From an uncultured Gammaproteobacteria bacterium (GTDB taxonomy: Bacteria; Patescibacteriota; Patescibacteriia; UBA9934; CAZDDW01), in contig OZ246408.1 of assembly GCA_965231015.1 (NCBI GenBank), forward strand, positions 620,115 to 684,114: 64,000 nt of DNA, given 5' to 3'. Shown piece after piece: positions 1,869 through 57,496 of the stretch. Position numbers and translations under genes: made by a program. The notes under the pieces are model-generated. The model worked only from the letters and a program-made list of their open reading frames with translations. It searched no databases and was not told where the DNA came from. The first letter of the stretch is position 1; each line of letters begins with the position of its first letter.

Positions 1869-2150
1869 AATTTCAGTTTAGCAGGGTTTTTGCCATGTTG
1901 CCAGGTTTAAAAAACACCCACACCAAAAATCCCACGTAAGGCACCATTCCGGCGAACAGATCAGCCAGATCGACACACGATCCTTCTGAAAGCAAGCCCG
2001 ACCCGAGGACTCGAACTTCTTGATTCCGAACTCGGTCACAGTACCGGACTGATTGTAACCCCCCGGATTTTATGACGTAAAGTCACACTCTTTGCAGGTC
2101 TGTCATTAACATCCTCATTTTCTGACAGCAAGTGATCACAATTGAATAAT

Positions 2151-2296: not shown

Positions 2297-2581
2297 ATGA
2301 CAAAGAAAAAGAACGGCAAGTTTGGTCGTCACAGTACAGTAAGTAAAGAAGTAAAAAAGGTTGTCCGTAAATTGGTAAAGCTTGAGGGAGTTACCAAGCT
2401 CGAGCTAAACCGATTCCACCCGGTTCGTCACTCGCGAACCAACGGCGAAGTCGTGCTCAAGGAAGAGCACAGCAAAGGAATGAAACTCTTGGTTTACCAC
2501 TCGGACGGTATCCAAGAAATTTACCTGGTGTTTGAAGAGGAATCAAAAGACGACGTAACTGAGTACGTCGCCGCAATGTAA
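2297..2581 (+). CDS. Hypothetical small basic protein (94 aa) with strong Shine-Dalgarno
   Basis: ATG at 2297 preceded by AGGAGGAGG with a 7-nt spacer; the track ORF 2216..2581 starts upstream in the same frame. The protein is MTKKKNGKFGRHSTVSKEVKK... with no family recognised. GC is slightly above background. Confidence 0.45.
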   Translation: MTKKKNGKFGRHSTVSKEVKKVVRKLVKLEGVTKLELNRFHPVRHSRTNGEVVLKEEHSKGMKLLVYHSDGIQEIYLVFEEESKDDVTEYVAAM

Positions 2582-5156: not shown

Positions 5157-5185
5157 ACCTTAAACGAAAAATACGCATCTGTCAA
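5157..5185 (-). promoter_or_regulatory. Sigma70-like promoter TTGACA-17-TAAGGT driving cassette A
   Basis: On the minus strand, TTGACA is the reverse complement of 5180-5185, the spacer is exactly 17 nt, and TAAGGT is the reverse complement of 5157-5162. The ATG lies ~45 nt downstream. Confidence 0.35.
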
Positions 5186-8804: not shown

Positions 8805-9059
8805 CTAGTAATCAGGGTCATATGACCGTAGTTCATGTTTCACCCGACGCAGGCGCGCGCTTAGAATTGCCCGTTCAGCTCGCGCTTTTTTGAGTTGTTG
8901 GTTGAGACTGATCCTGTCGATCAACCGAGGATTACGACTTCGCTCCAACTTCTGGAGATCTCGTTGTATGCCGCGAATCTCCGCGTCTTTGTTGCCGATT
9001 TTTCGTTGAAGCGAAGTCACTTCGGTTTTTACAACCTTGCGCTCCGCTTGCTTGCCCAA
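8805..9059 (-). CDS. Small basic coiled-coil protein (84 aa) in a mildly GC-rich cassette
   Basis: Very strong SD AGGAGGGAGGTG, a 5-nt spacer, then a TTG start. The protein is (M)GKQAERKVVKTEVTSLQRKIGNKDAEIRGIQRDLQKLERSRNPRLID..., with heptad-like periodicity and no family recognised. Confidence 0.45.
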   Translation of the reverse strand: MGKQAERKVVKTEVTSLQRKIGNKDAEIRGIQRDLQKLERSRNPRLIDRISLNQQLKKARAERAILSARLRRVKHELRSYDPDY

Positions 9060-12289: not shown

Positions 12290-12720
12290 AGGTATAACTG
12301 ACTTAAAACAGAGGCCGTGTTAAAGATCAGTCATCGAAAAAAAACTGAAGGAGAATAGCATGAACGAACAACGGTAAAATCCTTCTGAACAACTGACCGC
12401 CAACCCATGGGCGATGCCGTTTCGTTTCGCGATCACGAGTGTATGCCACGCTGTCTGTGTGTGGGCCTGCATCAATCTCGGTTTTCGGAACCATGGTTGG
12501 TGATTCCTATTGGCCGGCGTCGCTGCATCCTTCGTGGGTCGTGCATACGTCAGCCATCGAGCAACACAACTGATCACCGAGCTCAAGGCCACACCACCCA
12601 GCCCCCCCTACGTCATCGGCACCTTCTGCTCAATCGATCTATTGCCTTCTCAGAGTAGATCTGTCTCGACCACACCCGATCCACCCCTACTCCGGGGAGT
12701 TATGTTTCTGTAGAAGAATA
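12290..12720. other. GC-rich ~430-bp element B with ambiguous coding potential (candidate structured ncRNA or decayed insertion)
   Basis: GC is markedly above the flanks. All three track ORFs (12320..12592 -, 12407..12658 +, 12510..12713 +) overlap and look non-protein-like. A long-range inverted repeat CCAACCCATGG (~12401) / CCATGGTTGG (~12491) is present. A tiny SD-led ORF, GAAGGAGAAtagcATGAACGAACAACGGTAA, sits at the 5' end. Confidence 0.3.
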
Positions 12721-12883
12721 TTTTACTTGTTAATTTAGTTAAATGAACAATTAATTCAATAACAAAAAATCCTCTGTGATTATTTTAATAATCGAATTTG
12801 GGGAGTCTTATTTTCACTGATTTGACCACAAAAATACGTGTATGTCAAGTGGAAAACCGTCATTTCTAGCCCTGTTGATAAGT

Positions 12884-14547: not shown

Positions 14548-14847
14548 ATGTTTCAAAAAATAAAAGCCGTTAAAGACCTGCGCAGTCAGGCCAAGGAAAT
14601 GCAAAACGCCATGTCCGAAATCACCGAGGTTGGTGAAGCGGCCTGGGGAAAAGTCAAGATTACTATCGATGGAAACCAGAACATCACCAATGTTGAAATT
14701 GATGAATCCATAATGGACAACCGGGAGAAACTACAAGAAGAGATCATGAACGCGTTTAATAATGGGTTAAAGAAAATTCAGAAAAAGATGGCCGGTAAAA
14801 TGAAAGAGATGGGTGGACTGGACGCACTCAAGAACTTCGATCTATAA
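14548..14847 (+). CDS. ybaB: Nucleoid-associated protein YbaB/EbfC
   Basis: 99 aa with a YbaB-type coiled coil. It lies immediately upstream of recR, the conserved ybaB-recR arrangement. Confidence 0.8.
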   Translation: MFQKIKAVKDLRSQAKEMQNAMSEITEVGEAAWGKVKITIDGNQNITNVEIDESIMDNREKLQEEIMNAFNNGLKKIQKKMAGKMKEMGGLDALKNFDL

Positions 14848-14850
14848 ACC

Positions 14851-15453
14851 ATGCGCAAGTTTCCTGAACCAATTGAAAACCTGGTTGCGGCGTTTGCCCG
14901 ACTGCCTGGCGTAGGGCCAAAAACGGCTCTGCGCTATGTTTTCTATTTATTGCGTTCGCCTCAGGGTGACATCGAATCATTCTCTCGAGCCTTACTTGAC
15001 CTGGCCAAAAATATAAAAGTTTGTGACACCTGTTTTACTTACACGACCGAGAATCGCTGTCACATTTGCTCGGACACTAAACGGTCAAGCTCGAGTCTTT
15101 GTGTAGTGGCAGAACCTCGAGATATTGCAACCATAGAGGCCACAAAACAGTTTGATGGGTTTTACCATGTGATCGGTGGAACACTTAACCCAATCGAGGG
15201 GGTTACTCCGGAAGTTTTGAACATTAAGCCTCTACTCGACCGCCTCGAAACCAATCCAGAGATTAAAGAAGTGATCCTGGCTTTTTCTCCTGACGTCCAA
15301 GGTGAGACCACAATTTTATATCTGACCAAACACATTAAACCTTTGGGCCGAAAAGTTACAAGACTCGCTCGCGGCCTGCCGCTCGGGGCAGACCTTGAGT
15401 TCGCAGACGAAATAACACTCGGCGACGCTATATCCGGCAGAAGAGAGACATAA
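14851..15453 (+). CDS. recR: Recombination protein RecR
   Basis: 200 aa with HhH (LPGVGPKTALRYVFYLL), a C4 zinc finger (CDTCFTYT...CHICSD), and Toprim. Confidence 0.9.
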   Translation: MRKFPEPIENLVAAFARLPGVGPKTALRYVFYLLRSPQGDIESFSRALLDLAKNIKVCDTCFTYTTENRCHICSDTKRSSSSLCVVAEPRDIATIEATKQFDGFYHVIGGTLNPIEGVTPEVLNIKPLLDRLETNPEIKEVILAFSPDVQGETTILYLTKHIKPLGRKVTRLARGLPLGADLEFADEITLGDAISGRRET

Positions 15454-15478
15454 AACGAGCTAGCAAGGCTCGTTTTCG
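15454..15478 (+). terminator. Intrinsic terminator after recR
   Basis: AACGAGC-TAGCAAG-GCTCGTT hairpin followed by TTTCG. Confidence 0.5.
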
Positions 15479-15479
15479 A

Positions 15480-15508
15480 TTGACACGACCTACTTTATTT
15501 GATAAGAA
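15480..15508 (+). promoter_or_regulatory. Consensus sigma70 promoter TTGACA-17-TAAGAA of GC-rich cassette C
   Basis: TTGACA at 15480-15485, an exact 17-nt spacer, and TAAGAA at 15503-15508. SD GAGGAGGAGG at 15510-15519 and ATG at 15525 follow. Confidence 0.5.
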
Positions 15509-15524
15509 CGAGGAGGAGGTGCCC

Positions 15525-15869
15525 ATGTCCGTCGAAGACAAGCTCCTGCCTGGACACTTGGCGATAATGCGAATGATCGAGATCACGGTTCGCAACTCGA
15601 CCAAGACGCCAAAGCCCAGCAAGCAAGATCTCGCCAAGACTCCTGCTGTGCTGAACGCTCTGTTCCAAACCCTTCTCATGTGCAACATCCCGAAGGACGA
15701 CCTGAAGATCGTGATCGGTCGAAGCCGTAACGCCATCAGCAACATGCGCCCCGAAGTCGACACCAAGAGACTGTTCAAAATTACCAAGGAACTTGAAGCG
15801 CGCTCGAGCATCCGGCACCGCACCAAGGAAATCATCCGTGGGACAATTAGCCGCATCACCGGAAGGTAA
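15525..15869 (+). CDS. Hypothetical protein (114 aa), cassette C gene 1
   Basis: ATG 5 nt after GAGGAGGAGG. The protein is MSVEDKLLPGHLAIMRMIEITVRNSTKTPKPSKQDL...; the region is GC-rich and no family was recognised. The track ORF 15480.. includes the untranslated promoter. Confidence 0.55.
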   Translation: MSVEDKLLPGHLAIMRMIEITVRNSTKTPKPSKQDLAKTPAVLNALFQTLLMCNIPKDDLKIVIGRSRNAISNMRPEVDTKRLFKITKELEARSSIRHRTKEIIRGTISRITGR

Positions 15870-15887
15870 TGAGGAAGGACTGGGTCA

Positions 15888-16178
15888 ATGAATTCGATCT
15901 ATGCTGAACTCGTAGAAACATACCTGCTGAACCAGATCAGCACCGCCAAGGGACTCATTGATTCGGACAACGCCTACTCCAATCTCGGAAGGCTGCTTGG
16001 CCGGATCGATGGAGCCGCGGCGACCTTGTTTCTCATCTGGCCCGAACTTGACCAAGAGACCCGGCGAAAAACCATCCTGGCTCTTGAGGAAGGTACCAAG
16101 ATCAAGGGAGGCCAGTTCTCACCTCTGCGCGATCTTTGCCAAGCTCACCACAACAAGCTCTCCAAGATCATCTTCTAA
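15888..16178 (+). CDS. Hypothetical protein (96 aa), cassette C gene 2
   Basis: SD GAGGAAGGA at 15871-15879 and ATG at 15888. The protein is MNSIYAELVETYLLNQISTAKGLIDSDNAYSNLGRLLGRIDGAAATLFLIWPELDQETRRK..., with no family recognised. Confidence 0.55.
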   Translation: MNSIYAELVETYLLNQISTAKGLIDSDNAYSNLGRLLGRIDGAAATLFLIWPELDQETRRKTILALEEGTKIKGGQFSPLRDLCQAHHNKLSKIIF

Positions 16179-16214
16179 CCAGAGAGAGTCATCAAGCAGC
16201 GTATACAAATTCCG

Positions 16215-16252
16215 AGCGGAACCCACCCAGGATCCCGCTCTTTTTTTATTTT
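16215..16252 (+). terminator. Intrinsic terminator of cassette C
   Basis: GAGCGG (16215-16220) pairs with CCGCTC (16235-16240), followed by TTTTTTTATTTT. The minus-strand neighbour's TAA stop falls inside the T-tract. Confidence 0.65.
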
Positions 16253-16629
16253 GCCAGATGTTCTTTTATTAATTCAATGTCTTGTTTGTCTTTTTCGCGC
16301 CCGAATCTACGTTTCCATTCGAGCACATGTTCAAGTCTTACATAAGGCCAACCATCAATCGTTTCAGCAGTTGAAATTAATTCTGCCTCATTTTCAAGCC
16401 ATGGCTGCCAGTTCCAAAAGATATCCACATCACCTACCACGATTTGCCCTTTTTCTTCATCAGTAATTCCATATTTTTTTGCGAGCTGATCCCACACCTC
16501 CTTTTTTACCAAAATATCCAAATCCCCCGGCTTTTTTAATCCACGAACAGCCATGGGTCCACTGCCAAAAATCGCAAACGAACCTTCGGGCAGATTAAGT
16601 TGTTTTAATTGATCAAGTAACTCGTTCAT
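16246..16629 (-). CDS. Small nucleotidyltransferase-domain protein (127 aa)
   Basis: GS...D.D minimal NTase signature (FAIFGSGPMAVRGLKKPGDLDILV). It overlaps the upstream cca gene by 4 nt. Confidence 0.5.
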   Translation of the reverse strand: MNELLDQLKQLNLPEGSFAIFGSGPMAVRGLKKPGDLDILVKKEVWDQLAKKYGITDEEKGQIVVGDVDIFWNWQPWLENEAELISTAETIDGWPYVRLEHVLEWKRRFGREKDKQDIELIKEHLAK

Positions 16630-17849
16630 ATCAATGTTTTAACAAATTGTTTAGCTTCTTCTAGACTTGAGACTCTACCATCAAGTTGTGCCATATAAAC
16701 TTGTTCAAGCACGCGTCCTACTTCTTCTCCCTCTTTCATTCCGAGTTCGATTAAGTCGTCTCCACCCAGAATCCGGGGTTCAGGTACGTGATCGACTTCG
16801 AGACCTCGAGCCAGATCGAGCAAGTCTGATTCTTGGCCGAGGATACTTTGAATGCGAGCCAATTCCTCGATCGTGGCCGGAAACAGACGCGCCGCCAATT
16901 TCTTGATCTTTGCCGGGTTATCAGAATTGAACCCAAGCTCACGAATCAACCGCTCGATTCGATCAGTTCGTTCCATACTTATCTCAATTCCTCGTAAGAA
17001 CTTTTTGGGTTTTTGCATGTCGCTAGTCAGAATCACAAGCATAGTATTAAGCCGATCGTTTGGTTCAAGCTCGAGCTTTGCCGCCCGATCAAGCTCATCA
17101 AGTATTTGTTTTGAATACCCAGCCTCGAGTTCAGGGTGCAGTTGTTTGATGACCCCGATCTCTTGGGCTGCTGCGAGACCAACACTCGGTTTCGGTGATA
17201 AAGTTAACATCTTAACCCACTCTTCACCAATCCGACTAGCCGGCAAGCTGGTCATGTCCGTAGTTCGAGCGACTTCGAGCGTGGCGGGGTCGATCTTAAA
17301 ATCAAAGCGTCCAGCAAACTGAGCAGCTCGCAACGGCCGCAGTGGATCTTCACCAAATGAATCAGCGTCTACCATTTTGATTAACCCTGACTCGATATCT
17401 TTTACCCCACCGTACGGATCAACCACCTCATCCGTTAAAGGATCAATTCCAATCGCGTTCATGGTGAAATCACGGCGACGAAAAGCCTCTTCATGACTCA
17501 TGCCAGGATCATACTTGGTTTCTACATCCTTATGACCGGGACCAACCTGCCTATCCCTGCGTGGCAAAGACACGTCAACTCCATCCACTTGAAACACCTC
17601 AAACTGTTTTCCCACTTCTTGAACTTCACCAAAAGTCTTCAACAATTTTTCGAGCTTGTTCTTCTCTATCCCGTAAACCTCAACATCGATATCTTTGCTA
17701 ACAAGAACCTTTGCATCTTCTGGATCCTTTGCATCCCGTACATCTTCAATCATCCGATCTCTCGCATATCCACCCACGATCAAAGCTCGACCACCTGCTT
17801 CACGAACTGCCTTGGCTATTTTTTTTACTTTTTTAAATTGTTCTTTCAT
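16626..17849 (-). CDS. cca: CCA-adding tRNA nucleotidyltransferase (class II, poly(A) polymerase family)
   Basis: 407 aa. The N-terminal IVGGYARDRMI...DIDVEV corresponds to the GGxVRD/DxD head, followed by RRDFTMNAI and a helical body. Confidence 0.8.
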   Translation of the reverse strand: MKEQFKKVKKIAKAVREAGGRALIVGGYARDRMIEDVRDAKDPEDAKVLVSKDIDVEVYGIEKNKLEKLLKTFGEVQEVGKQFEVFQVDGVDVSLPRRDRQVGPGHKDVETKYDPGMSHEEAFRRRDFTMNAIGIDPLTDEVVDPYGGVKDIESGLIKMVDADSFGEDPLRPLRAAQFAGRFDFKIDPATLEVARTTDMTSLPASRIGEEWVKMLTLSPKPSVGLAAAQEIGVIKQLHPELEAGYSKQILDELDRAAKLELEPNDRLNTMLVILTSDMQKPKKFLRGIEISMERTDRIERLIRELGFNSDNPAKIKKLAARLFPATIEELARIQSILGQESDLLDLARGLEVDHVPEPRILGGDDLIELGMKEGEEVGRVLEQVYMAQLDGRVSSLEEAKQFVKTLI

Positions 17850-36783: not shown

Positions 36784-37365
36784 ATGTCATACCAGCTTCG
36801 CGAACAGATCCCCGGCCACGCTGTTGACAAGCATCTCCATTTTCTGTGGCCTAACCCGGTTGAAGATGACTCTCAGGGTGAGATATGGAGAATCTGGTCT
36901 GCAGTCTCGGAAAAGTCTCGGCCGCCGATTAAGCTCGATGACGGCGTCATGGTAGACATCGAGGACAGTGAGTTCGGTTCGGCCTGGCAAATCCTCGGTG
37001 GAGGCGGCATGGCTGCCACCCAGGTTGATGACTACTTCATCAATCCCTCACTCGACCTCGAGACCGAACGAACCAGACTCGAGAAGCTGGTCGAACAGCT
37101 TCGTGCCCAACGCTGGCGCCAGATGGACATCATGGACAGGGCCATGCATGACCCCGAGTACCGCGAGCGTCGTGCCTTCTTGGAGCGCCGAGAAGAGGTC
37201 GGTCAAGCCTTGACCAAGGCAAATGAAATCACGTCTCTGATTCGAACCGTGGCTATCTACTCACCCTCACAGCGCTCTGGCCTAATCCTGAAGCGGGCCC
37301 AGGTTTTTATCAAGAGCAACCACGACATCAAGTTCCCACCCATGCCAGAACAGCCTGAAAGCTAG
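36784..37365 (+). CDS. Hypothetical protein (193 aa), GC-rich cassette G gene 1 (paralogue of gene 2)
   Basis: SD GGAGGA at 36775-36780 and ATG at 36784. MSYQLREQIPGHAVDKHLHFLWPN...; the C-terminal half (ERTRLEKLVEQLRAQRW...DPEYRERRAF...IKSNHDIKF) parallels gene 2. Confidence 0.5.
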   Translation: MSYQLREQIPGHAVDKHLHFLWPNPVEDDSQGEIWRIWSAVSEKSRPPIKLDDGVMVDIEDSEFGSAWQILGGGGMAATQVDDYFINPSLDLETERTRLEKLVEQLRAQRWRQMDIMDRAMHDPEYRERRAFLERREEVGQALTKANEITSLIRTVAIYSPSQRSGLILKRAQVFIKSNHDIKFPPMPEQPES

Positions 37366-37371
37366 CCGGCA

Positions 37372-37959
37372 GTGAGTACAGATAGGCACGGGCTTCGAAC
37401 TGAAATCGACGGTGATCGAGTCGATGAACAATTAACAAGGTGGAACACAGACTGCTGGTTGTATTCTTGGAAAAAACCTAAACCCGATTGGGGTTTCTTG
37501 GAAGCCACATATAAACAGATCAAGCACGGTTGGGAAAAATACAGGGCTGGCAAGACTCAATATCGAGTCCACAGGACACAACTGAGTAATCCCGTCTTCC
37601 GCCTTCCAGAGGCCATCCGAAACAAGGTTTCGCCTCGAACTCTAGAATATGTAATCCGCCCTGCGCTTGATAACGCAACCGAACGTGCTGACCTGGAAGA
37701 CATGGTTCAGAAACTTCACGCAGAACGTTCCCACGGGATCGATCTTTTGCGGGAAGCCATTGAACACCCAGAATTCCGAGAAGATGAAGCTTACCGTCAT
37801 GCCCATACTCTGATCCAATTCTTAGTCAACCAAATCCATCATACCTCCACCATACTTGAGTACTTAACTCTTTGGACCCCGTCGGAATCTTCCCTTACCT
37901 TGTTGGAACAAGCAAGGCTATGGATCGAGGCTGGTTGTGATATCAAATTTGACAACTAA
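37372..37959 (+). CDS. Hypothetical protein (195 aa), cassette G gene 2 (tandem paralogue)
   Basis: GTG start 6 nt after the gene 1 stop. The segment ERADLEDMVQKLHAERSHGIDLLREAIEHPEFREDEAYRHA...IEAGCDIKF is colinear with gene 1. The stop TAA abuts the uvrB stop with no spacer. Confidence 0.5.
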   Translation: MSTDRHGLRTEIDGDRVDEQLTRWNTDCWLYSWKKPKPDWGFLEATYKQIKHGWEKYRAGKTQYRVHRTQLSNPVFRLPEAIRNKVSPRTLEYVIRPALDNATERADLEDMVQKLHAERSHGIDLLREAIEHPEFREDEAYRHAHTLIQFLVNQIHHTSTILEYLTLWTPSESSLTLLEQARLWIEAGCDIKFDN

Positions 37960-42097: not shown

Positions 42098-45000
42098 TTA
42101 TTCTTCAATTAATGTATCAGACTCCTCAACCGGAGCTTCTTCAGGCTGGGCTGGCTCCTCTTCCACCACAGTTTCTTCCTGATCGGGATCAACATGTTGA
42201 GTCCCTACATCCTCTTCGACCTCTTCTTCGGTCATAGGCTCGTCATCTTCTACTTCTTCAACTACCTCCTCCTCTTCTTCTTCTCCTTCGGCTATCTCCT
42301 CATCAATTACTGGTTCTTCTTCAACCACCTCTTCCTCTTCTTCTACTGGTTCCTCTTCCTCCGGCTCTTCATCTATCTGTTCGTCCGGATCAACCATGCC
42401 TTCAACCGGATCATTTATATGACACTGGCCGTCCCAATAATAGTTTGTCAGCTGTTTGCACTCGTCCAGGGTATCACAGGCGTTCAAATTATCAACCCCA
42501 CACTCACCTTGATCAATAACCAGCTCAATTTCTTCAGTGGTTCCGTCTGAAATGAACAGCTTGGCATTATTTGAACCAAAAGCGTGCCAACTGAATTCAA
42601 CGCTCTCGCCATACATCTTATCTATCTCAATGTTAAATCCGGTTAAAGTTACATCTTTGATAATGTAGTCAATGTCCTCATGTAAATAGTTCATGAGAGT
42701 AGCAGTAACAATTGGTTGATATTGATACTCTTCCTCAAATTCAACCTGAACATTGGTCTCGTATTTCAGGATGCGAGCCAGACCAACCGTATCACCGTTA
42801 AAGGTAGTGTGTTTCTTTACCACCAAATTATCAACCTCGCCACTCATAACGAGAGTCGAACCACTTCCCTGTTCAACAGACTCAGTTTCTTGAATATCAT
42901 TCATACTATTTTGTATTGTCTCAATCACTCCCTGTTGATCCTGAATTGATTTCATCACAAGCGGAATAAAACTCTTATAATCCACCATCTTATACCCGTC
43001 CGAACGAGTGGTTACGGCAATTGGATAAATATCTTCAACCTGTTGAGCAATTACCCCGTGGTAGAATGTTTCATCATCGTCTGTAAAAGCTGATCTGTAT
43101 CGGAAATCCACAATCTCAACGGCCATTAAATCTTCAATGGAAAGTTCAGTAGCGGTGATATCCCGCTTCAAGCGCTCGTCTGACGGAGCTGTGGTATCAA
43201 TTGTATTTTGTCCAATGTAAAGAGTAGCTGAGCCTGTACCGTGGGTTTCGTCATCAATTAAATTATCCCCACTATCAACACCGATTGTCACACCAGAAGC
43301 TACCACTAATCCGCCGTTAGTTGGATCAGTGTCGCCAATACCAACGATTCCAGAACTAGATAAACGCATTACTTCTGAACCACTGGTTGAGAAGCCTAAA
43401 GTATCGGCCGAAATTCGGTACATTCCAGTGTTAGAGTCGTCGTTGAACCGGTATGATGGAGAACCAGCTGTTCCGTTTGCGTTAGCAAACGAACTGGCTC
43501 TAACTTGTCCAACAACCTGGAATTTAGTTGAAGGTGAGTCCGTACCAATTCCAACCCTCTCATTAGTAGTATCAATGTTCAAAATTGAAGTACCACCATC
43601 TGCATCTAAGAATTGGAAGCCGTTGGTTGAGTCAGTGCTATTTTGGAAAGTTAATAGATCATTAGTGGTATCGAAGGTTACTGCAGTTTCATCACCATCA
43701 GCCCCAATGTGTAAGGTGGCTGGGCCAAGATATAAATCCTGCCAACGAACTGTGCTTGAACCAAGGTCAAAGGTGTCATCTGCTGATGGAAGAAGGTCGT
43801 CACTTAATATAAAGGTTGTGGTATCGTGTCTTAAATATTCTGTTGTGGCATTGTTGTAATACAAGTACTCATCCAGGGTGATGTTACCATCAGCCTCAAT
43901 ATCATCGGCAACTAAAAGGTCGCTAGTCCCATCGATGTTGCTAGCCACACCACCTCCAACATCAAGCAGAGCCGCTGGACTGTCATCCCCAATTCCCACA
44001 TCTTCTAAAAAGTAGCTTTCCCCGGCTGAAACATAGAGGGCAAATCCACTACTTTGTGTATTTAGTTCCAATAAGTTTGCCGTGGCCGAAGAATTGGTGT
44101 CGCGGAAGCTGGCAAAAGCAGAAGCGGTCGCCGCTGTGCCTCGACGAGCATCAAATACGGAACCGGTACCATTATTGGTCAGGCTTATCATGTTAATGTT
44201 TGAATCTTGGTCAGCACTTAAAACACCCCCTGCGCCATTTTGATCAATCTCAATTGCGTTTCCGGTACCGTCATTTTGAATTTTCAAGACATCCTGATCT
44301 GAACCATCGTCTTCAGTAAATGATACTAGTGGTCCGTCAGCATCAACAGCCGCACGGCGTGAATACACATTCAAACCAATTCCCGGTGCATCGTTTCGAA
44401 CAAACAAAGCCCCGGATGAACTGGTGGCAAACCCAACATCACCAATTTGATCTATCAATAGCGCATTACCTGTACCATCATTGGTCAGATACATTACGTT
44501 TTGATCTGATGCACCATCCTCATAGAGCTCAAACAAGGCATCATCCGTGGTAGCTGCGTCTTCATTTCTGTATAAATAAAGTGCCCCGGCTCCGCCACCG
44601 GCCGTAACTCTTAAACTGGCGGCGTTATTGGTGCTAGCATCACCGATATGAGTAATCGACACAGCATAATTACTGGTGTCAGTTCCACGTACAGCCAACA
44701 TCTCAGAAGGACTATTGGTACCAATTCCCAAATATTTGTTTGTGTCGTCCCAGAAAAGGTTGGCATTATCTTCATCCAAATCCCCGGAAGCATCAGCAAA
44801 CATAACTGAACCGGTAGTAAAGCTAGAATCAAGAGAGCCGGACAAAGTTCCGTAAATTGTGCCATCGACTTCAAGGTCGTCGGCTACCAATAAGTCATCT
44901 GTTCCGTCGATGAAGTTAACAACTCCGCCACCGACATCTAACATGGCCGAAGGTGATGGATCTCCAATCCCAATATACCCCGTATTATCTGTGATCCTTA

Positions 45001-48000
45001 ACCTTTCCGTAGGTACCCCGACCCCATTATCTGTTGCAAAGCTGTGACGGGTGGTGGCATAGAAAGAGAAGTAACCATCTCCAAAGTCAGCGACACCATT
45101 ACTATCAGCTAAAATTTTAGTATTGTGAGCAGCATTTCCGATTTCAATATAATTTCCAACATTATCATACTGAATCGAACTAACGCTTGATCCTCCATCA
45201 TTAAAGTAGATCCAATCTGTTACTCGGATATCACCAGAGACATCAAGTTCAACCCCTGGTGTATTCGTCCCAATACCTAACCGATTATTGCCATCATCCC
45301 AGAATAAGTTGGTGTTATCTTGACTTAATAACCCGGAAGAACCGATAAACGGCATGGAGCCGGTAGTCATATCGGCAATGGATAACGTCTCACCGGTGTT
45401 TAATAACAGATCATCGCCCGGGTTGGTTGGTGATAAATCAGTTCCGGTCTTGGACCAATACGATGACCCTGCACCCAATGAGGCGGTATAAGTTCCAAGA
45501 GCGTTCAAAGCATGAACAATAGAGGTCGAGGTCTCACCGCCGGCACCAATTGTTGAACCAATAGATCCATCATCGGCAAAAATTTCCCCGGCATCATTTA
45601 ATAAATCGTCTCCAAGAGCAGAACCGGTCTGAGTAAAGTAAAGGCTTGGCTCTTGATTATCCCGGAAATGGATCAATCCTCCGCCACCAGATGAATCAGC
45701 GTTCAAAGTGATTAAAGCTCCGCCATTATTTACAGAATCAACTTCAAAATCAACTTCTGAATTACCATTTCCTGCCGTGGCGTGCACATAAAAACGAGCA
45801 TCACCGTTAGTTGACGGATTGTTGCTGATATTAAATTGAGCTATGGAGTCACCATTGGTATTCGTGTTTTGCAGATACACTTGGAAATCAGTGTCTCCGT
45901 TAGTGGAGTTAGAGGTTACCCCGCGATAAATACCTTGCACCTCATTTCCATCACCATTATCCTGAACTAAAAATTGAGCATACCGATTACCCGACATTAA
46001 CATGTCGTCTCCTGTGTGCATAGCCACTACTTGTGTATCAATTCCAATATCATCCGGGTCAATAAAGTTGAACAAACCAACCAGTCCGGTATTCCCTCCC
46101 AAACTTCCTTCGTTGGAATATGGATCAATGATTAAACCACCGGTTAAGGTTGTAAAGTCCACCCCGTCCCCTAGAACCGAATATCCTCCACCGGAATAAC
46201 TATTGTTCATGTAGGCGAGTCCGGATCCAAAATCAATGGCCGGCGGATTGTTGGTGACATCGTTTTGATTAATGGTCAAGGCGGCGTTATTGCTTGTATC
46301 CGGAACTGTAATTTCTACTGCCCCACTGTCCGCAGTGATTGATCGGCCGGCTCCGGCGCCGCCAGTGTCATATGACGCATCCAGAGTTCCGCCGCCGGCA
46401 CCGCCAAAATTCACCACGTAATTTCCCAAACTGTTCAGAGCATGCACAATAGACGTTGAGGTTTCACCACCTCCTCCTATGACTGAACCAAGCGTACCGG
46501 TTGAGCTAAAAATTTCCCCAGCACTATTCAACAAATCGTCTCCCAATGCCGAGTTATACTGCGTAAAATTCAGAGACTCGTTGTCATCCTCAAACTCAAT
46601 CCATGACCTTTGGTTTGGATCCAAGTCAGTGGTGGCCGATATAGTAATGTAGGCGTTTCCAACATATCCCACCCCTTCTTTGTCAGCCTCAATCCAGGTT
46701 TGAGCATCTCCACCGTCGTCGCTATTACGTGAACGTACATGGCTTACAGCATCACTAGAGCCACCGCCATCTGCAATTTCAGAATAAAATTGTGCCTCCA
46801 CATCGTTATCTGAACCAGCATTTTCTAAAGCGGCAATGGTGGCACTTCTGGTTGGCGTACCCGTAAAGAAGTTTTGATTAGAAGCATAAATGGCTGAACC
46901 TTGGGTTTCTCGACCGCTTGTGACCGCGCCGGTAAAATTATAGATTCCGGCTATCCCCATGTCACCGGCTGCAAAATAAGATTCATTGCCATAGGGATCA
47001 TAAATCAAACCACCGGTTGTGGTTCCCAAATCTGGTCCATCACTCATCATGAAAAAATTTGTGGTCAAATCAGCCTCAAGCACCTGCGGTCCGGTTCCGG
47101 AAAACTCGATCGAAGCTCCGCTGTCGGTGTTATTGGTGAGCTGTAAAACTGAAGATTCAACCGTGGTATCATTTTGAACGATTTCCAATCCAACATTACC
47201 AGAACCATCCGGTACAATGATTTGTACTTCATCAGAATCTGCCGTAATAATTCTTCCAGCCCCAGACCCACCGAAGTCATAAGCCATATCCAAAGTTCCA
47301 CCGGCTCCGGCACCAATGCCGGCGGCATATGTTCCGACCGCATTAATAGCGTGAATTAGCGAAAGTGAAGACTCGCTGAAACTTGATCCGATCGTACCGC
47401 TCGAAGAATAAATCTCACCAGGAGCGTTTAGTAAGTCTCCGCCCAGGGCAACACTATCTTGCGTCAAATACAAATTATTTTCTCTTTCATCAACAAAATA
47501 TACATCACCGTCCGGCGACAACAACTGAATTGTTGAAGTACCTCCGGCTGAAGCACTTAAAGTGATAGTTGAATCGTCGGCTATACTGTTATTTGCCTGA
47601 AGTAAAATAGTGGATTCACCGGACGTTCCGGTTGTTTTGCTTGCTCCGACTAAAAATTCTGCATCTCCGGTGTTCGTGGCACTAACCACGTTAAAAGTCA
47701 TGTCGCTGTCACCGGTTGCGGCTGATGTGGTGCGAGCATCAAAATCAATGGACACATCACCGGTTACATCGGTCTCGTTTAAAATAATTCTTGAGTAACG
47801 CGTGATAGTACCGCCGAAATCGTCATCACTATTATTCAAAACGATTTGTTGAGTAGGTACCCCGGCTGTAGCGGCACCAATAAAATTCATAATTCCGGAA
47901 AATCCCTCTGAACCACCAAGCGATGGGTCATTGCCGTACGGATCAATGAATAATCCTGAAGTTAGATCACTAAACTGGGCTCCGTTACCGACAATGCTCC

Positions 48001-51000
48001 AACCACTGGAAAGGTCGTTGGTAATAGCCGCGTAACCGGATCCGAAATCAATTCCACCCGGATAATTGGTCGTATCGTTTTGAGTGATTGATAAAGCGGC
48101 GGTGTTTGAGTTGTCAGGGACTGTAATTTGAACAGCCCCGCTGTCGGCTGTAATTAGTCGACCAGCTCCGGCACCGCCGAAATCATAGGCTTGATCAAGC
48201 GTTCCACCGGCTCCGGCTCCCAGACCGGCTGCATAAGTACCAACCGCGTTTAAAGCATGGACGAGTGAATCAGAGGTTTCACCAGAAACCGATCCGATCG
48301 TTCCGGTGGCTTCAAAAATTTCACCAGCGGCGTTTAATAAATCATCACCAAAGAAAGCACTGTCTTGGGTAAAAGCAAGGTCATCCCGCGTATCCGTAAA
48401 GCTGATAAAACCATCTCCGGTACCATTCAAAACCCGAGCCTGAATTGCTGTGTAAGCATTTCCGTTAGCGGCAACGTTATCAATATATGAACCAAGACTG
48501 GTGTAGGCATGGTGACCTAAATCTTCGTTTATAGATTTAATCTCTACAACTGCATCGTTATCTCCGGTTTCAGCTACCTCAGCGACTAATTGAGCCCGAA
48601 CGTCTTGTCCTCCTTCAGCATCAGTTTCCCAAAGGTATAAATACACAGAACGAGTTGGACTGTCGTTTGGAAAATCATTCATGGCTTGCATGAAAGACAA
48701 GGAACGATCTTGACTCGCCTCATCTGCTCCAATGTAATTTCCGAAACCGACGGCACCCTGATTCAAACCAGTATAAACTGGGTTGTTACCATATGGATCT
48801 ATCATGAATCCAGCATTTATATCTGCAACCGTAACATCGTCAGCTATAGCGATCCAATTACTGGTCAGGTCAGTTAAAAGCGAGTGTCCTCCAACACCGG
48901 TAAACTCAATCGCCGCCCCATCGCCGGCATTACTGATCGTTAAAGCTGACGGGTCATTTGTAGCATCATTTTGAGTAATGGTAAGCACGGAATGATTGGA
49001 ATTGTTCGGGGTAATGAATTGGATCGTTCCCGAGTCAGCCGTAATGGTTCTACCGTTACCGGCACCACCAAAGTCGTAAGCCTGATCCAGTGTACCACCG
49101 CCGCCGGCACCAATTCCGGCCGCATAAGACCCAACCGCATTCAGGGCATGTACTAAAGAATCGGATGTTTCACCAACACCTATTGAAGACCCAATGGTTC
49201 CAGTACTACTGAAGACCTCTCCCGGAGCATTTAACAAGTCATCACCCAAGCTAGAGCCGTATTGAGTGAAGGTCAGCTGGTCATTTTCGTCACGGAATGA
49301 AATCCATGAATCCATGGTGCCAGTATCATCAACCGCGGCTTCTAACTCAATATATGCATCTCCACTATTTCCGGCTCCACGTTTGTGAGCCTCAATGTGT
49401 ACGACCGAATCTCCACCATTATCTTCATGACTTGATTCTAAAACAGCTTCGGCGTCATCTGTGCCACCACCCGGTTCAATCTGAGCCAATGATCTGACTT
49501 CGACATTTCCATCTTCATCTGTTTCAAAAGCACCCACAACAGCCCAACGAGTTGGCGAACCGGTCAGATGGTTTGCGTTACCGGAATAATTAACTGATCC
49601 GGCTAAATTATTTCCGGCTGTTGCCGCTCCAACATAGTTATAATAACCGACCACCCCGTAACCAACCGCTGAAAAGGCCGGACTTACTCCGTAAGGATCA
49701 GCCAATAAACCGCCTGTTGACGTGGTGCCCATGTCGTTGGAGTCTCCCATAACATAATAATTGGAGGTAATATCTTCAAAAGTGGTTGAATAAACACTGG
49801 ATCCGGAAAAATGCAGACCAGATGCTCCGGAAGCATTGTTGGTAATCTGAACAGCCGGGTCAGTAGCCGCGGTATTGTTGTGCGTGGCTAAAAGACTGCT
49901 TCCTTGACTGTAGTTCCTAATCTTTAGTGCCGCGTCAGTAAAATCTTTTCCGTGTGTCACCTCTAAGGCACGCTCAGCCATAGGATTTCCAAAAGTCACA
50001 CTGCCTTCTAAAACATCCGCACTGACCGATTCAGCCGGAAATCCAGGATTACCTCCAATCACGGTTTGAACCGTTGCCACTGTTCCACTAGGATCAAGAG
50101 AAACGAGCTGGTACATACCATCATGAGCCGCTGAGCCAGACACCAAAAATGTTGTGGAAGCTGATTCTGTAATATTTAAACTGCGAAGATTAGTTGAAAA
50201 AGTGATTGTGTTTCCTGATAAAGTTACTGCCTCTGTCAATAATTCATAAGAACTGGTCAAACCAAGAGTTCTTTCATTTCCCATAATTGTCACACCGAAA
50301 GCAAATTCACCAACTGCTGGTTCAGAATTCACAACCAAGGTTGCAGGAAAATCAGTAAAGGTCGTCGTTCCAAGTCCAGAATTCAATTTTAGTAAAGAGT
50401 CACTAAAAGTAGCTGTTTCTGCTTGTCCGGCATCACTAATGTACACCGGCCCGCTGTCAGCTATAATGCTTCGCCCGACACCGGCACCTCCGGTATCATA
50501 TGACTGATCAAGCGTGCCGCCACCGCCACCTAACGAATCTACATATTCCTTATCAACCAAAGATCGGTTTGTGTAGTTTGATGAATAATCAGCTGCATAA
50601 ACAGCTCCTTCAAAACCAACTACATCACTGGTAATCGATATGTTTTCCGGAGAAACATCAAGACTGGTACTTGTAAGATTATTATCATCACTTCTTTCAA
50701 AAGACAGGTCATTTGTTCGCATCCAAGTATTCATGATTTCACCCGTAGCAGAATTCTCAGCCGTGTAGAAAACTCCTCCTGAATCCTGATTCAGTTCGCT
50801 AAAATAAATACCCGTGTTCATTGATTGAATCCATTCATCCTCCCCAATCTCTACCATCATTCCCGTATTCTCAATAATAAAATAATTTCCGTTCAAATCA
50901 AACGTACGATCTTCAGAAAGAGAACCGTCGGAATTGAAGATATTAATACTTGCATTATCTACATATTCCTTATCAACCAAAGATCGGTTTGTGTAGTCAG

Positions 51001-57422: not shown

Positions 57423-57496
57423 TCCGAGGTCGTCTAAGGGCAGGACACCAGGTTTTGGTCCTGGGAATCGGGGTTCGAATCCCTGCCTCGGAACCA
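57423..57496 (+). tRNA. tRNA-Gln (anticodon UUG), CCA encoded
   Basis: Manual fold: acceptor TCCGAGG/CCTCGGA; D-arm GTCT-AAGGGCA-GGAC; anticodon arm CCAGG-TTTTGGT-CCTGG with TTG at positions 34-36; T-arm CGGGG-TTCGAAT-CCCTG; discriminator A plus CCA at 57494-57496. Confidence 0.8.

What the first reader, a model, noticed from the sequence alone, without database searches (positions are those of the whole stretch)
15454..16252. Cassette C: complete E. coli-like expression unit (TTGACA-17-TAAGAA, GAGGAGGAGG, two ORFs, terminator) between recR and an NTase gene
Within 800 bp there is the recR terminator, then a consensus -35 with exact 17-nt spacing, a 10-nt SD, a 114-aa ORF, a second SD (GAGGAAGGA), a 96-aa ORF, and a strong GAGCGG/CCGCTC plus T8 terminator. 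Neither protein resembles a known family. Signals this idealised are atypical for the surrounding genome, where promoters and SD sites are weak or absent. The unit is either a recently acquired two-gene module (toxin/antitoxin-like size and organisation) or synthetic-looking.
Basis: seen in the sequence. Interest (0 to 1): 0.6.

Follow-up and report, generated by a model that had tools for sequence, protein, structure and literature searches.

The report
Native orphan small-protein operon, Uhrbacteria
The flagged 800 bp is a real, self-contained two-gene operon for two small helical proteins of unknown function; it is an inherited, lineage-specific part of a Candidate Phyla Radiation (Uhrbacteria-like) chromosome, not a recent, toxin-antitoxin or synthetic insert.

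Summary
These are the recR hairpin, TTGACA-17-TAAGAA, GAGGAGGAGG, a 114-aa ORF, GAGGAAGGA, a 96-aa ORF, and GAGCGG/CCGCTC followed by T7. Both ORFs are genuine genes. A related metagenomic genome (L001) carries them at the same place with 81% and 65% amino-acid identity and dN/dS of 0.09 and 0.19.

ORF1 belongs to a very small family: five clusters among 5.8 billion proteins, all Uhrbacteria/Patescibacteria. Wherever the flanks are visible, it lies between recR and the NTase-like/CCA-enzyme/rplU block. Its promoter and leader are conserved in all five genomes while the spacers vary: TTGAC, N14-15, TGnTA[A/T]GAA, N5-6, AGGAGG, N5-6, ATG. The expression signals are therefore native and under selection.

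Other genes in the window use the same promoter style. Strong Shine-Dalgarno sites, however, really are rare, and the codon usage is strongly deviant (GC3 0.73/0.66 against about 0.42).

The slot is hypervariable between genomes. It also holds other small proteins that share an N-terminal [I/L]P[G/A]H motif.

No Pfam, PDB, PADLOC, PHROG, phage or plasmid similarity exists, and the fold is a generic helical bundle. The toxin-antitoxin, recent-acquisition and synthetic readings are not supported. Function remains unknown.

The parts
15452..15476 (+). Hairpin ending the dnaB-ybaB-recR operon (AAAACGAGC / GCTCGTTTT), overlapping the recR stop codon. It insulates the unit from upstream transcription.
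   Evidence: Equivalent hairpins directly precede the promoter in L001 and L023.
15480..15508 (+). Sigma-70-type promoter: -35 TTGACA (15480-85), 17-nt spacer, extended -10 TGaTAAGAA (TG 15500-01, TAAGAA 15503-08).
   Evidence: TTGAC, TG and TA.GAA are invariant in five homologous loci while the spacer varies (alignment A6). One match per locus, 0.05 expected by chance in the window. Function as a promoter is inferred, not measured.
15510..15519 (+). Shine-Dalgarno GAGGAGGAGG. The conserved core AGGAGG lies at 15514-15519. The predicted transcript start (about 7 nt after the -10) falls at about 15514-15516, on the SD itself.
   Evidence: AGGAGG lies at a fixed 5-6 nt from the -10 and 5-6 nt from ATG in all five loci. 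The transcript start is an inference.
15525..15869 (+). ORF1: 114 aa, pI 10.8, predicted five-helix bundle. Member of a five-cluster Uhrbacteria-specific family with an N-terminal LPGH motif.
   Evidence: 81% identity and dN/dS 0.09 versus L001. Remote homologues P0004, P0005 and P0007. AlphaFold2 pLDDT 75. No family or fold match.
15871..15879 (+). Second Shine-Dalgarno-like site GAGGAAGGA, 8 nt before the ORF2 start.
   Evidence: L001 has a weaker purine-rich equivalent, AGAAAGGAAAAA.
15888..16178 (+). ORF2: 96 aa, predicted all-helical at low confidence. Found only in this genome and in L001.
   Evidence: 65% identity and dN/dS 0.19 versus L001. Only a self hit in the protein database. In L001 the public gene caller chose the antisense ORF instead. 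pLDDT 54.
16214..16252 (+). Intrinsic-terminator-like hairpin GAGCGG...CCGCTC followed by T7-A-T4, at the convergence point with the 127-aa NTase-like gene (stop codon 16246-16248 on the minus strand). Probably acts in both directions.
   Evidence: (called on the minus strand). A homologous hairpin is present in L001, and in L006 where the slot holds different genes.

Best explanation
The region is a native, vertically inherited, self-contained bicistronic operon of an Uhrbacteria-like Patescibacteria chromosome.

How it is expressed. Transcription of dnaB-ybaB-recR stops at the hairpin at 15452-15476. A conserved sigma-70-type promoter (TTGACA, 17 nt, TGaTAAGAA) then starts a short mRNA. Its 5' end is predicted to coincide with the Shine-Dalgarno AGGAGG, about 11 nt before the AUG. 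ORF1 and then ORF2 are translated from strong SD sites in a genome that otherwise hardly uses them. A hairpin plus T-run shared with the convergent NTase-like/CCA-enzyme operon ends the transcript.

What it encodes. ORF1 is a small, basic, five-helix protein of a fast-evolving, lineage-restricted family that anchors a hypervariable slot between recR and the CCA-enzyme block. In sister genomes the same slot holds one to three further small proteins that share an N-terminal [I/L]P[G/A]H helix-start motif, together with defence-type cargo (a retron-type reverse transcriptase, a DUF559 nuclease, a primase-type zinc ribbon). ORF2 is a younger, sublineage-specific partner gene.

Which steps are shown and which are inferred. 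Shown: that these are real genes, the synteny, and the conservation of the signals. Inferred from sequence only: promoter use, transcript start, termination and expression level.

Most likely molecular role (inferred, low confidence). ORF1, possibly paired with ORF2, is an abundantly made helical-bundle binding protein, acting as a nucleic-acid or protein adaptor or regulator. It would belong to a rapidly diversifying, conflict-type (defence, immunity or host-interaction) gene set. It is unlikely to be an enzyme or a classical toxin-antitoxin pair.
For: Coding status:
- dN/dS is 0.09 for ORF1 and 0.19 for ORF2.
- Both ORFs keep identical lengths in L001.
- Codon position 2 is the least variable.
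- The antisense ORFs are not conserved in extent between the two genomes.

Inheritance:
- The order dnaB-ybaB-recR-[ORF1 family]-...-NTase-like-CCA-rplU-DUF192 holds in the window, L001, L020 and L026.
- ORF1-family identity falls to 29-45% while the flanking proteins stay at 42-82%.

Signals:
- TTGAC, TG, TA.GAA and AGGAGG are invariant and in register in five loci.
- The composite pattern occurs once per locus.
- Promoters of the same style precede dnaB, rplU, uvrB and the gene at 5178.
- Terminator hairpins lie at both ends.

Family:
- Only five clusters were found among 5.8 billion and 1.8 billion proteins.
- The motif P[GA][HY] at residues 7-13 occurs in 8 of 58 SD-led ATG ORFs against 4 of 1975 others, Fisher p = 1e-10. 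The eight include four ORF1 orthologues, so the counts are not independent.
- The PAH-type paralogues are linked to each other: L026_110 with L026_120 at 7e-9, and with L023_39 and p111 at 1e-3 to 9e-3.

Slot variability.

Fold: five helices at pLDDT 75. pI is 10.1-11.0 in four of the five orthologues.
Against: - No experimental or transcriptomic data exist. The promoter, transcript start and high expression are inferred.
- The -10 hexamer is a poor match to TATAAT and lacks the -7 T.
- Pairwise profile comparisons between the ORF1 family and the other PGH/PAH proteins are not significant on their own (E = 0.04-0.9).
- The strongly deviant codon usage is not explained by vertical descent. It is opposite to that of the ribosomal protein L21 gene (GC3 0.28), so it does not fit the simple 'highly expressed gene' model.
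- One orthologue (L022) is not basic (pI 7.0).
Confidence: 0.6

Rival explanations
1. Type II toxin-antitoxin module: one small protein is a toxin, and the other is a DNA-binding antitoxin that also represses the strong promoter.
For: Two small adjacent co-oriented genes of 114 and 96 aa, 18 nt apart, with their own promoter and terminator. The slot in sister genomes carries defence-type genes. ORF1 is basic and helical.
Against: No hit to any toxin or antitoxin family in Pfam, NCBIfam or PADLOC at E <= 1. ORF1 homologues occur without ORF2 in L020, L022/L026 and L023 with the same conserved promoter. There is a single copy at a fixed syntenic site, with no mobility, no phage or plasmid copies and no palindromic operator at the promoter.
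Confidence: 0.12
2. Recently acquired foreign cassette from a GC-richer donor, phage or mobile element that uses strong SD sites, inserted downstream of recR.
For: GC 54% against about 44%, GC3 0.73/0.66 against about 0.42, and very different codon choice. Strong SD in an SD-poor genome. The slot content differs between genomes: L006 holds unrelated GC-rich genes, and L001 has an extra gene.
Against: Present at the same site in genomes diverged to dS of about 1 or beyond and to 80% RecR identity. The promoter is of the host's own style and is conserved. No homologue exists outside Uhrbacteria/Patescibacteria in 5.8 billion proteins, nor in viral, phage or plasmid collections. There are no flanking direct repeats, integrase or tRNA. 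GAA, CAA and GGA remain the preferred codons, which does not fit a simple GC shift. An ancient foreign origin of the whole family is not excluded.
Confidence: 0.1
3. ORF1 is an accessory component (regulator or antitoxin-like partner) of a retron or other reverse-transcriptase defence system. In this genome it is left behind without the reverse transcriptase.
For: In L023 the ORF1 homologue is followed by about 500 nt of structured non-coding sequence and a retron-type RT (best PADLOC model RT_VI, 3.9e-18). Type VI retrons pair the RT with a 91-110-aa helical HTH protein and a 75-79-aa small toxin (PMC7736814; bioRxiv 10.1101/2025.10.22.683967 and 10.64898/2026.04.27.721009). Those sizes resemble ORF1 and ORF2.
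Against: Only one of five genomes has the RT. There a terminator hairpin and about 570 nt separate the two genes, whereas the type VI order is ncRNA-SP-HTH-RT with the HTH gene abutting the RT. Neither ORF1 nor ORF2 matches any PADLOC retron accessory or Cro/C1 HTH model. There is no RT in the window. The RT fragment is partial and scores nearly as well with other retron types.
Confidence: 0.08
4. Not a real gene pair: chance ORFs in a GC-rich spacer, genes on the opposite strand, or an assembly or synthetic artefact.
For: Longer antisense ORFs exist (143 aa at 15428-15859 on the minus strand). A public gene caller chose the antisense ORF over ORF2 in L001.
Against: Purifying selection acts in the plus-strand frames, and ORF lengths are conserved. 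The antisense ORFs are broken or of different extent in the other genome. The SD and promoter are conserved on the plus strand. Independent assemblies are identical.
Confidence: 0.02

Closest known systems
Lineage-specific 'orphan' small-protein operons of Candidate Phyla Radiation genomes (novel families defined by conserved synteny, as catalogued in PMC10849945)
   Same: Small proteins without a Pfam domain, restricted to one uncultivated lineage. They are recognised as real by purifying selection and by conserved genomic context next to housekeeping genes.
   Different: Here the expression signals themselves are conserved and unusually strong for the genome. Codon usage is sharply deviant. 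The gene also sits in a hypervariable slot with tandem distant paralogues.
Type II toxin-antitoxin operons
   Same: Two small co-transcribed genes with their own promoter and terminator. They lie next to defence-type genes in sister genomes.
   Different: No homology to any toxin or antitoxin superfamily. The first gene is conserved alone in other genomes. The unit has a fixed chromosomal position, is single-copy, and shows no sign of mobility.
Type VI retron accessory pair (Cro/C1 HTH protein plus small SP toxin)
   Same: Similar sizes, both helical. One family member lies beside a retron-type RT with a long structured upstream RNA.
   Different: No sequence or model match. Wrong gene order and spacing in L023. 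There is no RT or ncRNA in this window.
Tandem families of small helical proteins with a fixed N-terminal motif (mycobacterial PE/PPE and Esx/WXG100 pairs). This is an analogy recalled from general knowledge, not tested.
   Same: Helical proteins of about 100-120 aa with a short conserved motif at residues 8-11. They are encoded singly or in adjacent pairs, duplicated in tandem and fast-evolving, with composition distinct from the bulk genes.
   Different: No PE, PPE or WXG100 Pfam hit at E <= 10. No type VII secretion genes were seen. The motif differs ([I/L]P[G/A]H). The resemblance is organisational only.

Membership tests
Bacterial sigma-70 promoter / SD-led operon with intrinsic terminator | -35 TTGACA-like and -10 TATAAT-like hexamers 16-18 nt apart | tested here: met
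   TTGACA, 17 nt, TAAGAA with an upstream TG. The -10 matches at only 3 of 6 positions, but it is invariant in five loci and resembles other TAAG-type -10s in the window.
Bacterial sigma-70 promoter / SD-led operon with intrinsic terminator | Transcript actually starting downstream of the -10 | not testable with these tools
   No RNA data. The start is predicted at about 15514-15516.
Bacterial sigma-70 promoter / SD-led operon with intrinsic terminator | GC-rich hairpin followed by a T-run after the last gene | tested here: met
   GAGCGG/CCGCTC followed by T7. The 15-nt loop is longer than typical. The hairpin is conserved in L001 and L006.
Type II toxin-antitoxin system | Toxin and/or antitoxin belonging to a recognised superfamily (RelE/ParE, MazF, PIN, HipA, Doc, HEPN; RHH, HTH, AbrB, Phd) | tested here: not met
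   No Pfam, NCBIfam or PADLOC hit at E <= 1. No PDB sequence hit. Fold matches are generic only.
Type II toxin-antitoxin system | The two genes co-occur as an obligate pair | tested here: not met
   ORF1 homologues lack ORF2 in L020, L022/L026 and L023.
Type II toxin-antitoxin system | Toxicity of one partner neutralised by the other | not testable with these tools
   Requires expression experiments.
Type VI retron (RT, ncRNA, Cro/C1 HTH, SP) | Clade-3 retron RT and structured ncRNA in the same operon | tested here: not met
   No RT in the window and no Rfam RNA at 15300-16400. Only L023 has an adjacent RT.
Type VI retron (RT, ncRNA, Cro/C1 HTH, SP) | [quoted passage not shown] | tested here: not met
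   No HTH model hit. In L023 the gene is about 570 nt and a terminator away from the RT. The canonical order is SP-HTH-RT.
HEPN-MNT pair (considered because the convergent neighbour is a minimal NTase-like protein) | All-helical HEPN partner with an invariant Rx4-6H motif, co-transcribed with the NTase | tested here: not met
   An RxxxxH is present in the window protein, but the His is not conserved in L001 or P0004. The genes are convergent, and the NTase-like gene is coupled to the CCA enzyme gene. There is only a weak Csm6 hit for one homologue.
Mobile gene cassette or genomic island | Flanking repeats or att sites, an integrase or a tRNA target, and copies elsewhere | tested here: not met
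   No flanking repeats. No paralogue in the window. No viral, phage or plasmid copies. The only tRNA is at 57423.
ORF1 family (new; [I/L]PGH small helical proteins of Uhrbacteria) | Length of 114-117 aa, N-terminal LPGH/LPGY, central IP, and R-x-R-N-x-[IL]-S, located downstream of recR | tested here: met
   Alignment A5, HMM scores of 170-186 bits for all members, and synteny.

The most novel reading that the evidence does not exclude
ORF1 (with ORF2 and the other [I/L]P[G/A]H small proteins) represents an undescribed, rapidly diversifying family of paired or tandem small helical proteins. The family occupies conserved chromosomal hot spots in Patescibacteria, such as recR/CCA and uvrA/uvrB. 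Its genes are expressed from minimal-leader mRNAs that begin with their Shine-Dalgarno sequence, and they keep a private GC3-rich codon dialect. On this reading the family would be a new conflict system (defence, immunity or host-interaction effectors), organised like PE/PPE or Esx pairs but unrelated to them.
Probability: 0.15. Interest if true: 0.6.

Novelty: new member of a known kind. Interest (0 to 1): 0.3.

Why it matters
In itself this is an ordinary bacterial operon encoding two hypothetical proteins, which is common in Candidate Phyla Radiation genomes. Three things make it somewhat useful.

1. It gives a phylogenetically footprinted promoter and leader for an uncultivated Patescibacteria lineage: -35 TTGAC, extended -10 TGnTAAGAA, and an SD at the predicted 5' end. 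That is of value for annotation and for building expression tools.

2. It shows that automated gene callers pick the wrong strand in such GC3-rich small genes. As a result the family is under-represented in protein databases.

3. It marks a hypervariable slot with a fast-evolving small-protein family next to retron- and nuclease-type cargo. That slot may be a place to look for new defence or symbiosis factors.

The persistent codon-usage anomaly in vertically inherited genes is an unexplained observation worth testing on whole genomes.

Tried and rejected
- **Family scans.** Pfam, PHROGs, PADLOC and NCBIfam scans of ORF1, ORF2 and the 127-aa neighbour found nothing for the two ORFs.
- **Solved structures.** PDB sequence-profile searches gave only noise.
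- **Collection scans with ORF1.** Genome, viral and metagenome scans found no new relatives. One alignment was too diverse to be used as a query.
- **Promoter/leader pattern in viral contigs.** One chance hit, inside a phage terminase gene.
- **Phage and plasmid tblastn.** No match.
- **In-window paralogue search by tblastn.** None found.
- **Repeat search.** No att-like repeats or operator palindromes.
- **Rfam on the unit.** Nothing.
- **Idea that ORF1 is a DGR Avd-like or retron type VI HTH protein.** This came from the RT next to the L023 homologue. It was rejected: there is no TR/VR repeat, the gene order is wrong, and there is no model hit.
- **Idea that ORF1 is the HEPN partner of the neighbouring NTase-like gene.** Rejected: the motif is not conserved and the genes are convergent.
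- **Idea that the conserved 3' hairpin is a repeated element.** Rejected: it occurs once in the window.
- **Profile-profile comparisons.** Tests linking ORF1 to p111, to the L023 upstream ORF and to ORF2, and ORF2 to the uvrA/uvrB-insert proteins, were individually non-significant.
- **Literature searches** for Uhrbacteria complete genomes and for SD usage in Patescibacteria gave nothing specific.
Full report

Yes. Reading 14800-17000 shows the following.

- recR ends at 15451-15453. A 9-10-bp hairpin (15452-15476) overlaps the stop codon.
- TTGACA lies at 15480-15485, a 17-nt spacer follows, and TAAGAA lies at 15503-15508, preceded by TG at 15500-15501.
- GAGGAGGAGG lies at 15510-15519.
- ORF1 is 114 aa (15525-15869).
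- GAGGAAGGA lies at 15871-15879.
- ORF2 is 96 aa (15888-16178).
- The terminator stem GAGCGG (16214-16219) / CCGCTC (16235-16240) is followed by T7-A-T4. This run overlaps the stop codon of the convergent 127-aa gene.

Minor corrections:
- The T-run is T7, not T8.
- The -10 matches TATAAT at only 3 of 6 positions and lacks the final T.
- The terminator loop is 15 nt.

For these last two reasons the generic scanner called neither signal on the plus strand. The unit is 53-54.5% GC; flanking 200-nt windows range from 37.5% to 53.5% and are mostly 40-49%. Identical sequence was assembled independently from two sequencing runs and in an NCBI genome whose contig is 1,002,985 bp.

**2. Whose genome is this?**

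The neighbours are dnaB, ybaB and recR upstream. Downstream, on the opposite strand, lie a 127-aa NTase-like protein, a CCA-adding enzyme, rplU and a DUF192 gene. The closest RecR proteins in species-representative genomes are from MAGs labelled Candidatus Uhrbacteria, Parcubacteria or Patescibacteria, at 56-76% identity. The window is therefore from a small Candidate Phyla Radiation chromosome.

**3. Are the ORFs genes?**

ORF1 has one close homologue (P0002, 81%). ORF2 has only itself in 5.8 billion proteins.

The contig carrying P0002 (L001) is syntenic and also encodes ORF2, at 65% identity. The public gene caller had chosen an antisense ORF there, which is why ORF2 had no database partner.

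Nei-Gojobori estimates between the window and L001:

| Gene | dN | dS | dN/dS |
|---|---|---|---|
| ORF1 | 0.099 | 1.07 | 0.09 |
| ORF2 | 0.235 | 1.23 | 0.19 |

Third codon positions vary most and second positions least. Values for flanking genes, where dS was not saturated, were 0.015-0.07 (dnaB, recR, L21, DUF192). The long antisense ORFs differ in extent between the two genomes. Both ORFs are therefore real protein-coding genes on the plus strand.

**4. The ORF1 family and its locus**

An exhaustive HMMER search of 1.84 billion representatives with the two-sequence profile found three remote relatives of 116-150 aa, plus one repetitive false positive. A word-index search with the five-sequence profile added nothing.

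Their contigs show the same neighbourhood:
- L020: recR, ORF1 homologue, NTase-like gene, CCA enzyme, rplU.
- L022 and its longer copy L026: recR, then a 3.3-kb slot that includes the homologue, then NTase-like gene, CCA enzyme, rplU.
- L023 is a 2-kb fragment.

ORF1-family identity between these genomes is 29-45%, while the flanking proteins are 42-82% identical. This is a fast-evolving gene, but it is positionally stable.

**5. Conserved expression signals**

I aligned the 80 nt upstream of the five genes. TTGAC, the TG, TA[A/T]GAA and AGGAGG are invariant and in register, while the spacers and everything further upstream differ. The consensus is TTGAC, N14-15, TG, N, TA[A/T]GAA, N5-6, AGGAGG, N5-6, ATG.

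The composite pattern occurs once in the window (0.05 expected) and once in each related locus, always at this gene. A scan of viral contigs gave one chance hit, inside a terminase gene.

This phylogenetic footprint is the main evidence that the promoter and SD are functional and native. Promoters of the same style precede dnaB (TTGATA-17-TAAGAT), the gene at 5178 (TTGACA-17-TAAGGT), rplU (TTGACA-17-TACAAT) and uvrB (TTGACA-17-TAGAAT). The claim that promoters are weak or absent elsewhere is therefore wrong.

By inference, a start about 7 nt after the -10 falls on the first base of AGGAGG in all five loci. The mRNA would begin with its SD, 11-12 nt before the AUG.

**6. What really is unusual**

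*Strong SD sites are rare.* Among the likely genes of the window, almost none has a match of 5 nt or more to the SD consensus. The only true gene starts preceded by GGAGG, AGGAG or GAGGA are ORF1, ORF2, the ORF at 36784, a DUF2103 gene at 2297 and a small ORF at 9059.

*Codon usage is very different from the bulk genes*:

| Measure | ORF1+ORF2 | Bulk genes |
|---|---|---|
| GC3 | 0.73 (ORF1), 0.66 (ORF2) | about 0.40-0.47 |
| ATC (share of Ile codons) | 82% | 23% |
| AAG (share of Lys codons) | 88% | 42% |
| CTC+CTG (share of Leu codons) | 69% | 22% |

GAA, CAA and GGA nevertheless remain the preferred codons. The bias is kept in L001 (GC3 0.68 and 0.66) and in L022 (0.72), and is weaker in L020 and L023 (0.54-0.55). 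The ribosomal protein gene rplU has GC3 of 0.28.

This pattern is not what recent transfer predicts, given the synteny and dS of about 1. It is also not the usual codon bias of highly expressed genes. I leave it unexplained.

**7. The slot and its other occupants**

The interval between recR and the convergent block varies between genomes.

| Genome | Content of the slot |
|---|---|
| L018, L019 | recR lies directly next to rplU |
| L006 | Two unrelated GC-rich genes (59 aa and 217 aa, the latter with an MshEN domain), each with hairpin, TTGACA promoter and strong SD. The slot ends at a hairpin homologous to the window's terminator |
| L001 | An extra 111-aa gene with its own promoter |
| L026 | Seven small genes, including a primase-type zinc-ribbon protein and a DUF559 nuclease |
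| L023 | About 500 nt of structured sequence and a retron-type RT |

Several of these small proteins share with ORF1 an N-terminal M-x5-7-[I/L]-P-[G/A]-H helix start:
- p111 in L001
- the 110-aa and 120-aa proteins in L026
- the ORF upstream of the homologue in L023
- in this window, the 193-aa ORF at 36784 in a GC-rich insert between uvrA and uvrB

The motif is found in 8 of 58 SD-led ATG ORFs against 4 of 1975 others (Fisher p = 1e-10). Four of the eight are ORF1 orthologues, so the counts are not independent. The codons differ at third positions, so the conservation is at the protein level.

The PAH-type proteins are detectably related to each other (7e-9 to 9e-3 in a 17-sequence search). 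Their link to the ORF1 family rests on the motif and a shared central Pro only. A link between ORF2 and the uvrA/uvrB-insert proteins is only suggestive (E = 0.035).

**8. Function**

There is no Pfam, PHROG, PADLOC or NCBIfam hit, no PDB sequence hit, and no phage or plasmid match.

I therefore commit, with low confidence, to a non-enzymatic binding or adaptor role in a rapidly evolving, conflict-type gene set.

**9. Rivals**

- *Toxin-antitoxin.* The organisation fits. However, there is no family match, ORF1 occurs without ORF2 in three genomes, and the locus is fixed.
- *Recent horizontal acquisition.* Composition fits. Synteny, divergence, the native promoter and the absence of any outside homologue do not.
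- *Retron accessory.* This reading was prompted by L023 and by the type VI retron literature: an HTH protein of 91-110 aa plus a small SP toxin of 75-79 aa (PMC7736814; bioRxiv 10.1101/2025.10.22.683967 and 10.64898/2026.04.27.721009). Against it, the gene order and spacing differ, no model matches, and there is no RT in this window.
- *HEPN partner of the neighbouring NTase-like gene.* The Rx4-6H motif is not conserved and the genes are convergent.
- *Artefact or synthetic.* Excluded by the natural diverged homologues.

**10. Verdict**

The unit is an ordinary, though neatly built, native operon for two lineage-specific small proteins. It is a new member of a known kind, and I score its interest at 0.3.

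Three aspects deserve follow-up:
- the conserved minimal-leader promoter/SD design
- the persistent private codon usage
- the possible wider [I/L]P[G/A]H small-protein family in variable slots

Noticed in passing
window 36784-37365 and 37372-37959 (+): A GC-rich insert (up to 60% GC) between uvrA and uvrB. It carries two paralogous ORFs of 193 and 195 aa (phmmer 8e-17) with no Pfam match. The first has SD GGAGGA and the same N-terminal IPGH motif as ORF1.
   Followed up: partly
window ~12320-12700 (-): A 57% GC stretch downstream of a TTGACA at 12848 (minus strand), in the variable slot upstream of dnaB. No frame is open and there is no Rfam match. It may be an unknown RNA or a decayed gene.
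   Followed up: partly
window ~1900-2140 (-): Structured GC-rich non-coding stretch downstream of a TTGACA at 2163 (minus strand), containing a T-loop-like GTTCGAGTCC. ARAGORN and Rfam were negative.
   Followed up: partly
window 2297-2581 (+) and 8805-9059 (-): The few other genes with strong SD sites. One is a 94-aa DUF2103 protein (TAGGAGGAGG). The other is an 84-aa coiled-coil-like ORF (AGGAGGGAGGTGAT, TTG start).
   Followed up: no
window 16246-16629 (-): The 127-aa neighbour has a minimal nucleotidyltransferase signature (GSG...DLD) but no Pfam hit; it matches only PHROG 12854 (4e-11). Its start overlaps the stop of the CCA-adding enzyme gene, and it is 74-80% conserved. It co-occurs with the ORF1 family in all four genomes where both flanks are visible, and both it and the ORF1 family are absent from L006.
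   Followed up: partly
L023 880-1977: About 500 nt of highly structured non-coding sequence followed by a partial retron-type reverse transcriptase (best PADLOC model RT_VI, 3.9e-18). It lies immediately after the ORF1 homologue's terminator.
   Followed up: partly
L026 3640-6900: In this sister genome the recR-to-NTase slot is 3.3 kb. It holds seven small genes: three PGH/PAH-motif proteins, an overlapping 88/110-aa pair, a 61-aa membrane peptide, a primase-type zinc-ribbon protein and a DUF559 nuclease.
   Followed up: partly
L020, L022 and L023, upstream of the ORF1 homologues: The 23-nt leader and start CAGGAGGCACAACATGGTCAGAG is identical in three genomes whose proteins are only 32-45% identical. 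That is more conservation than an SD alone would need.
   Followed up: no
L001 7470-7874 (-): The public gene caller annotated a 134-aa antisense ORF in place of the real ORF2. GC3-rich small genes in these genomes create long spurious antisense ORFs.
   Followed up: yes
window 42098-52798 (-): A single 3566-aa ORF. Giant proteins of this kind are typical of CPR genomes. It was not examined.
   Followed up: no
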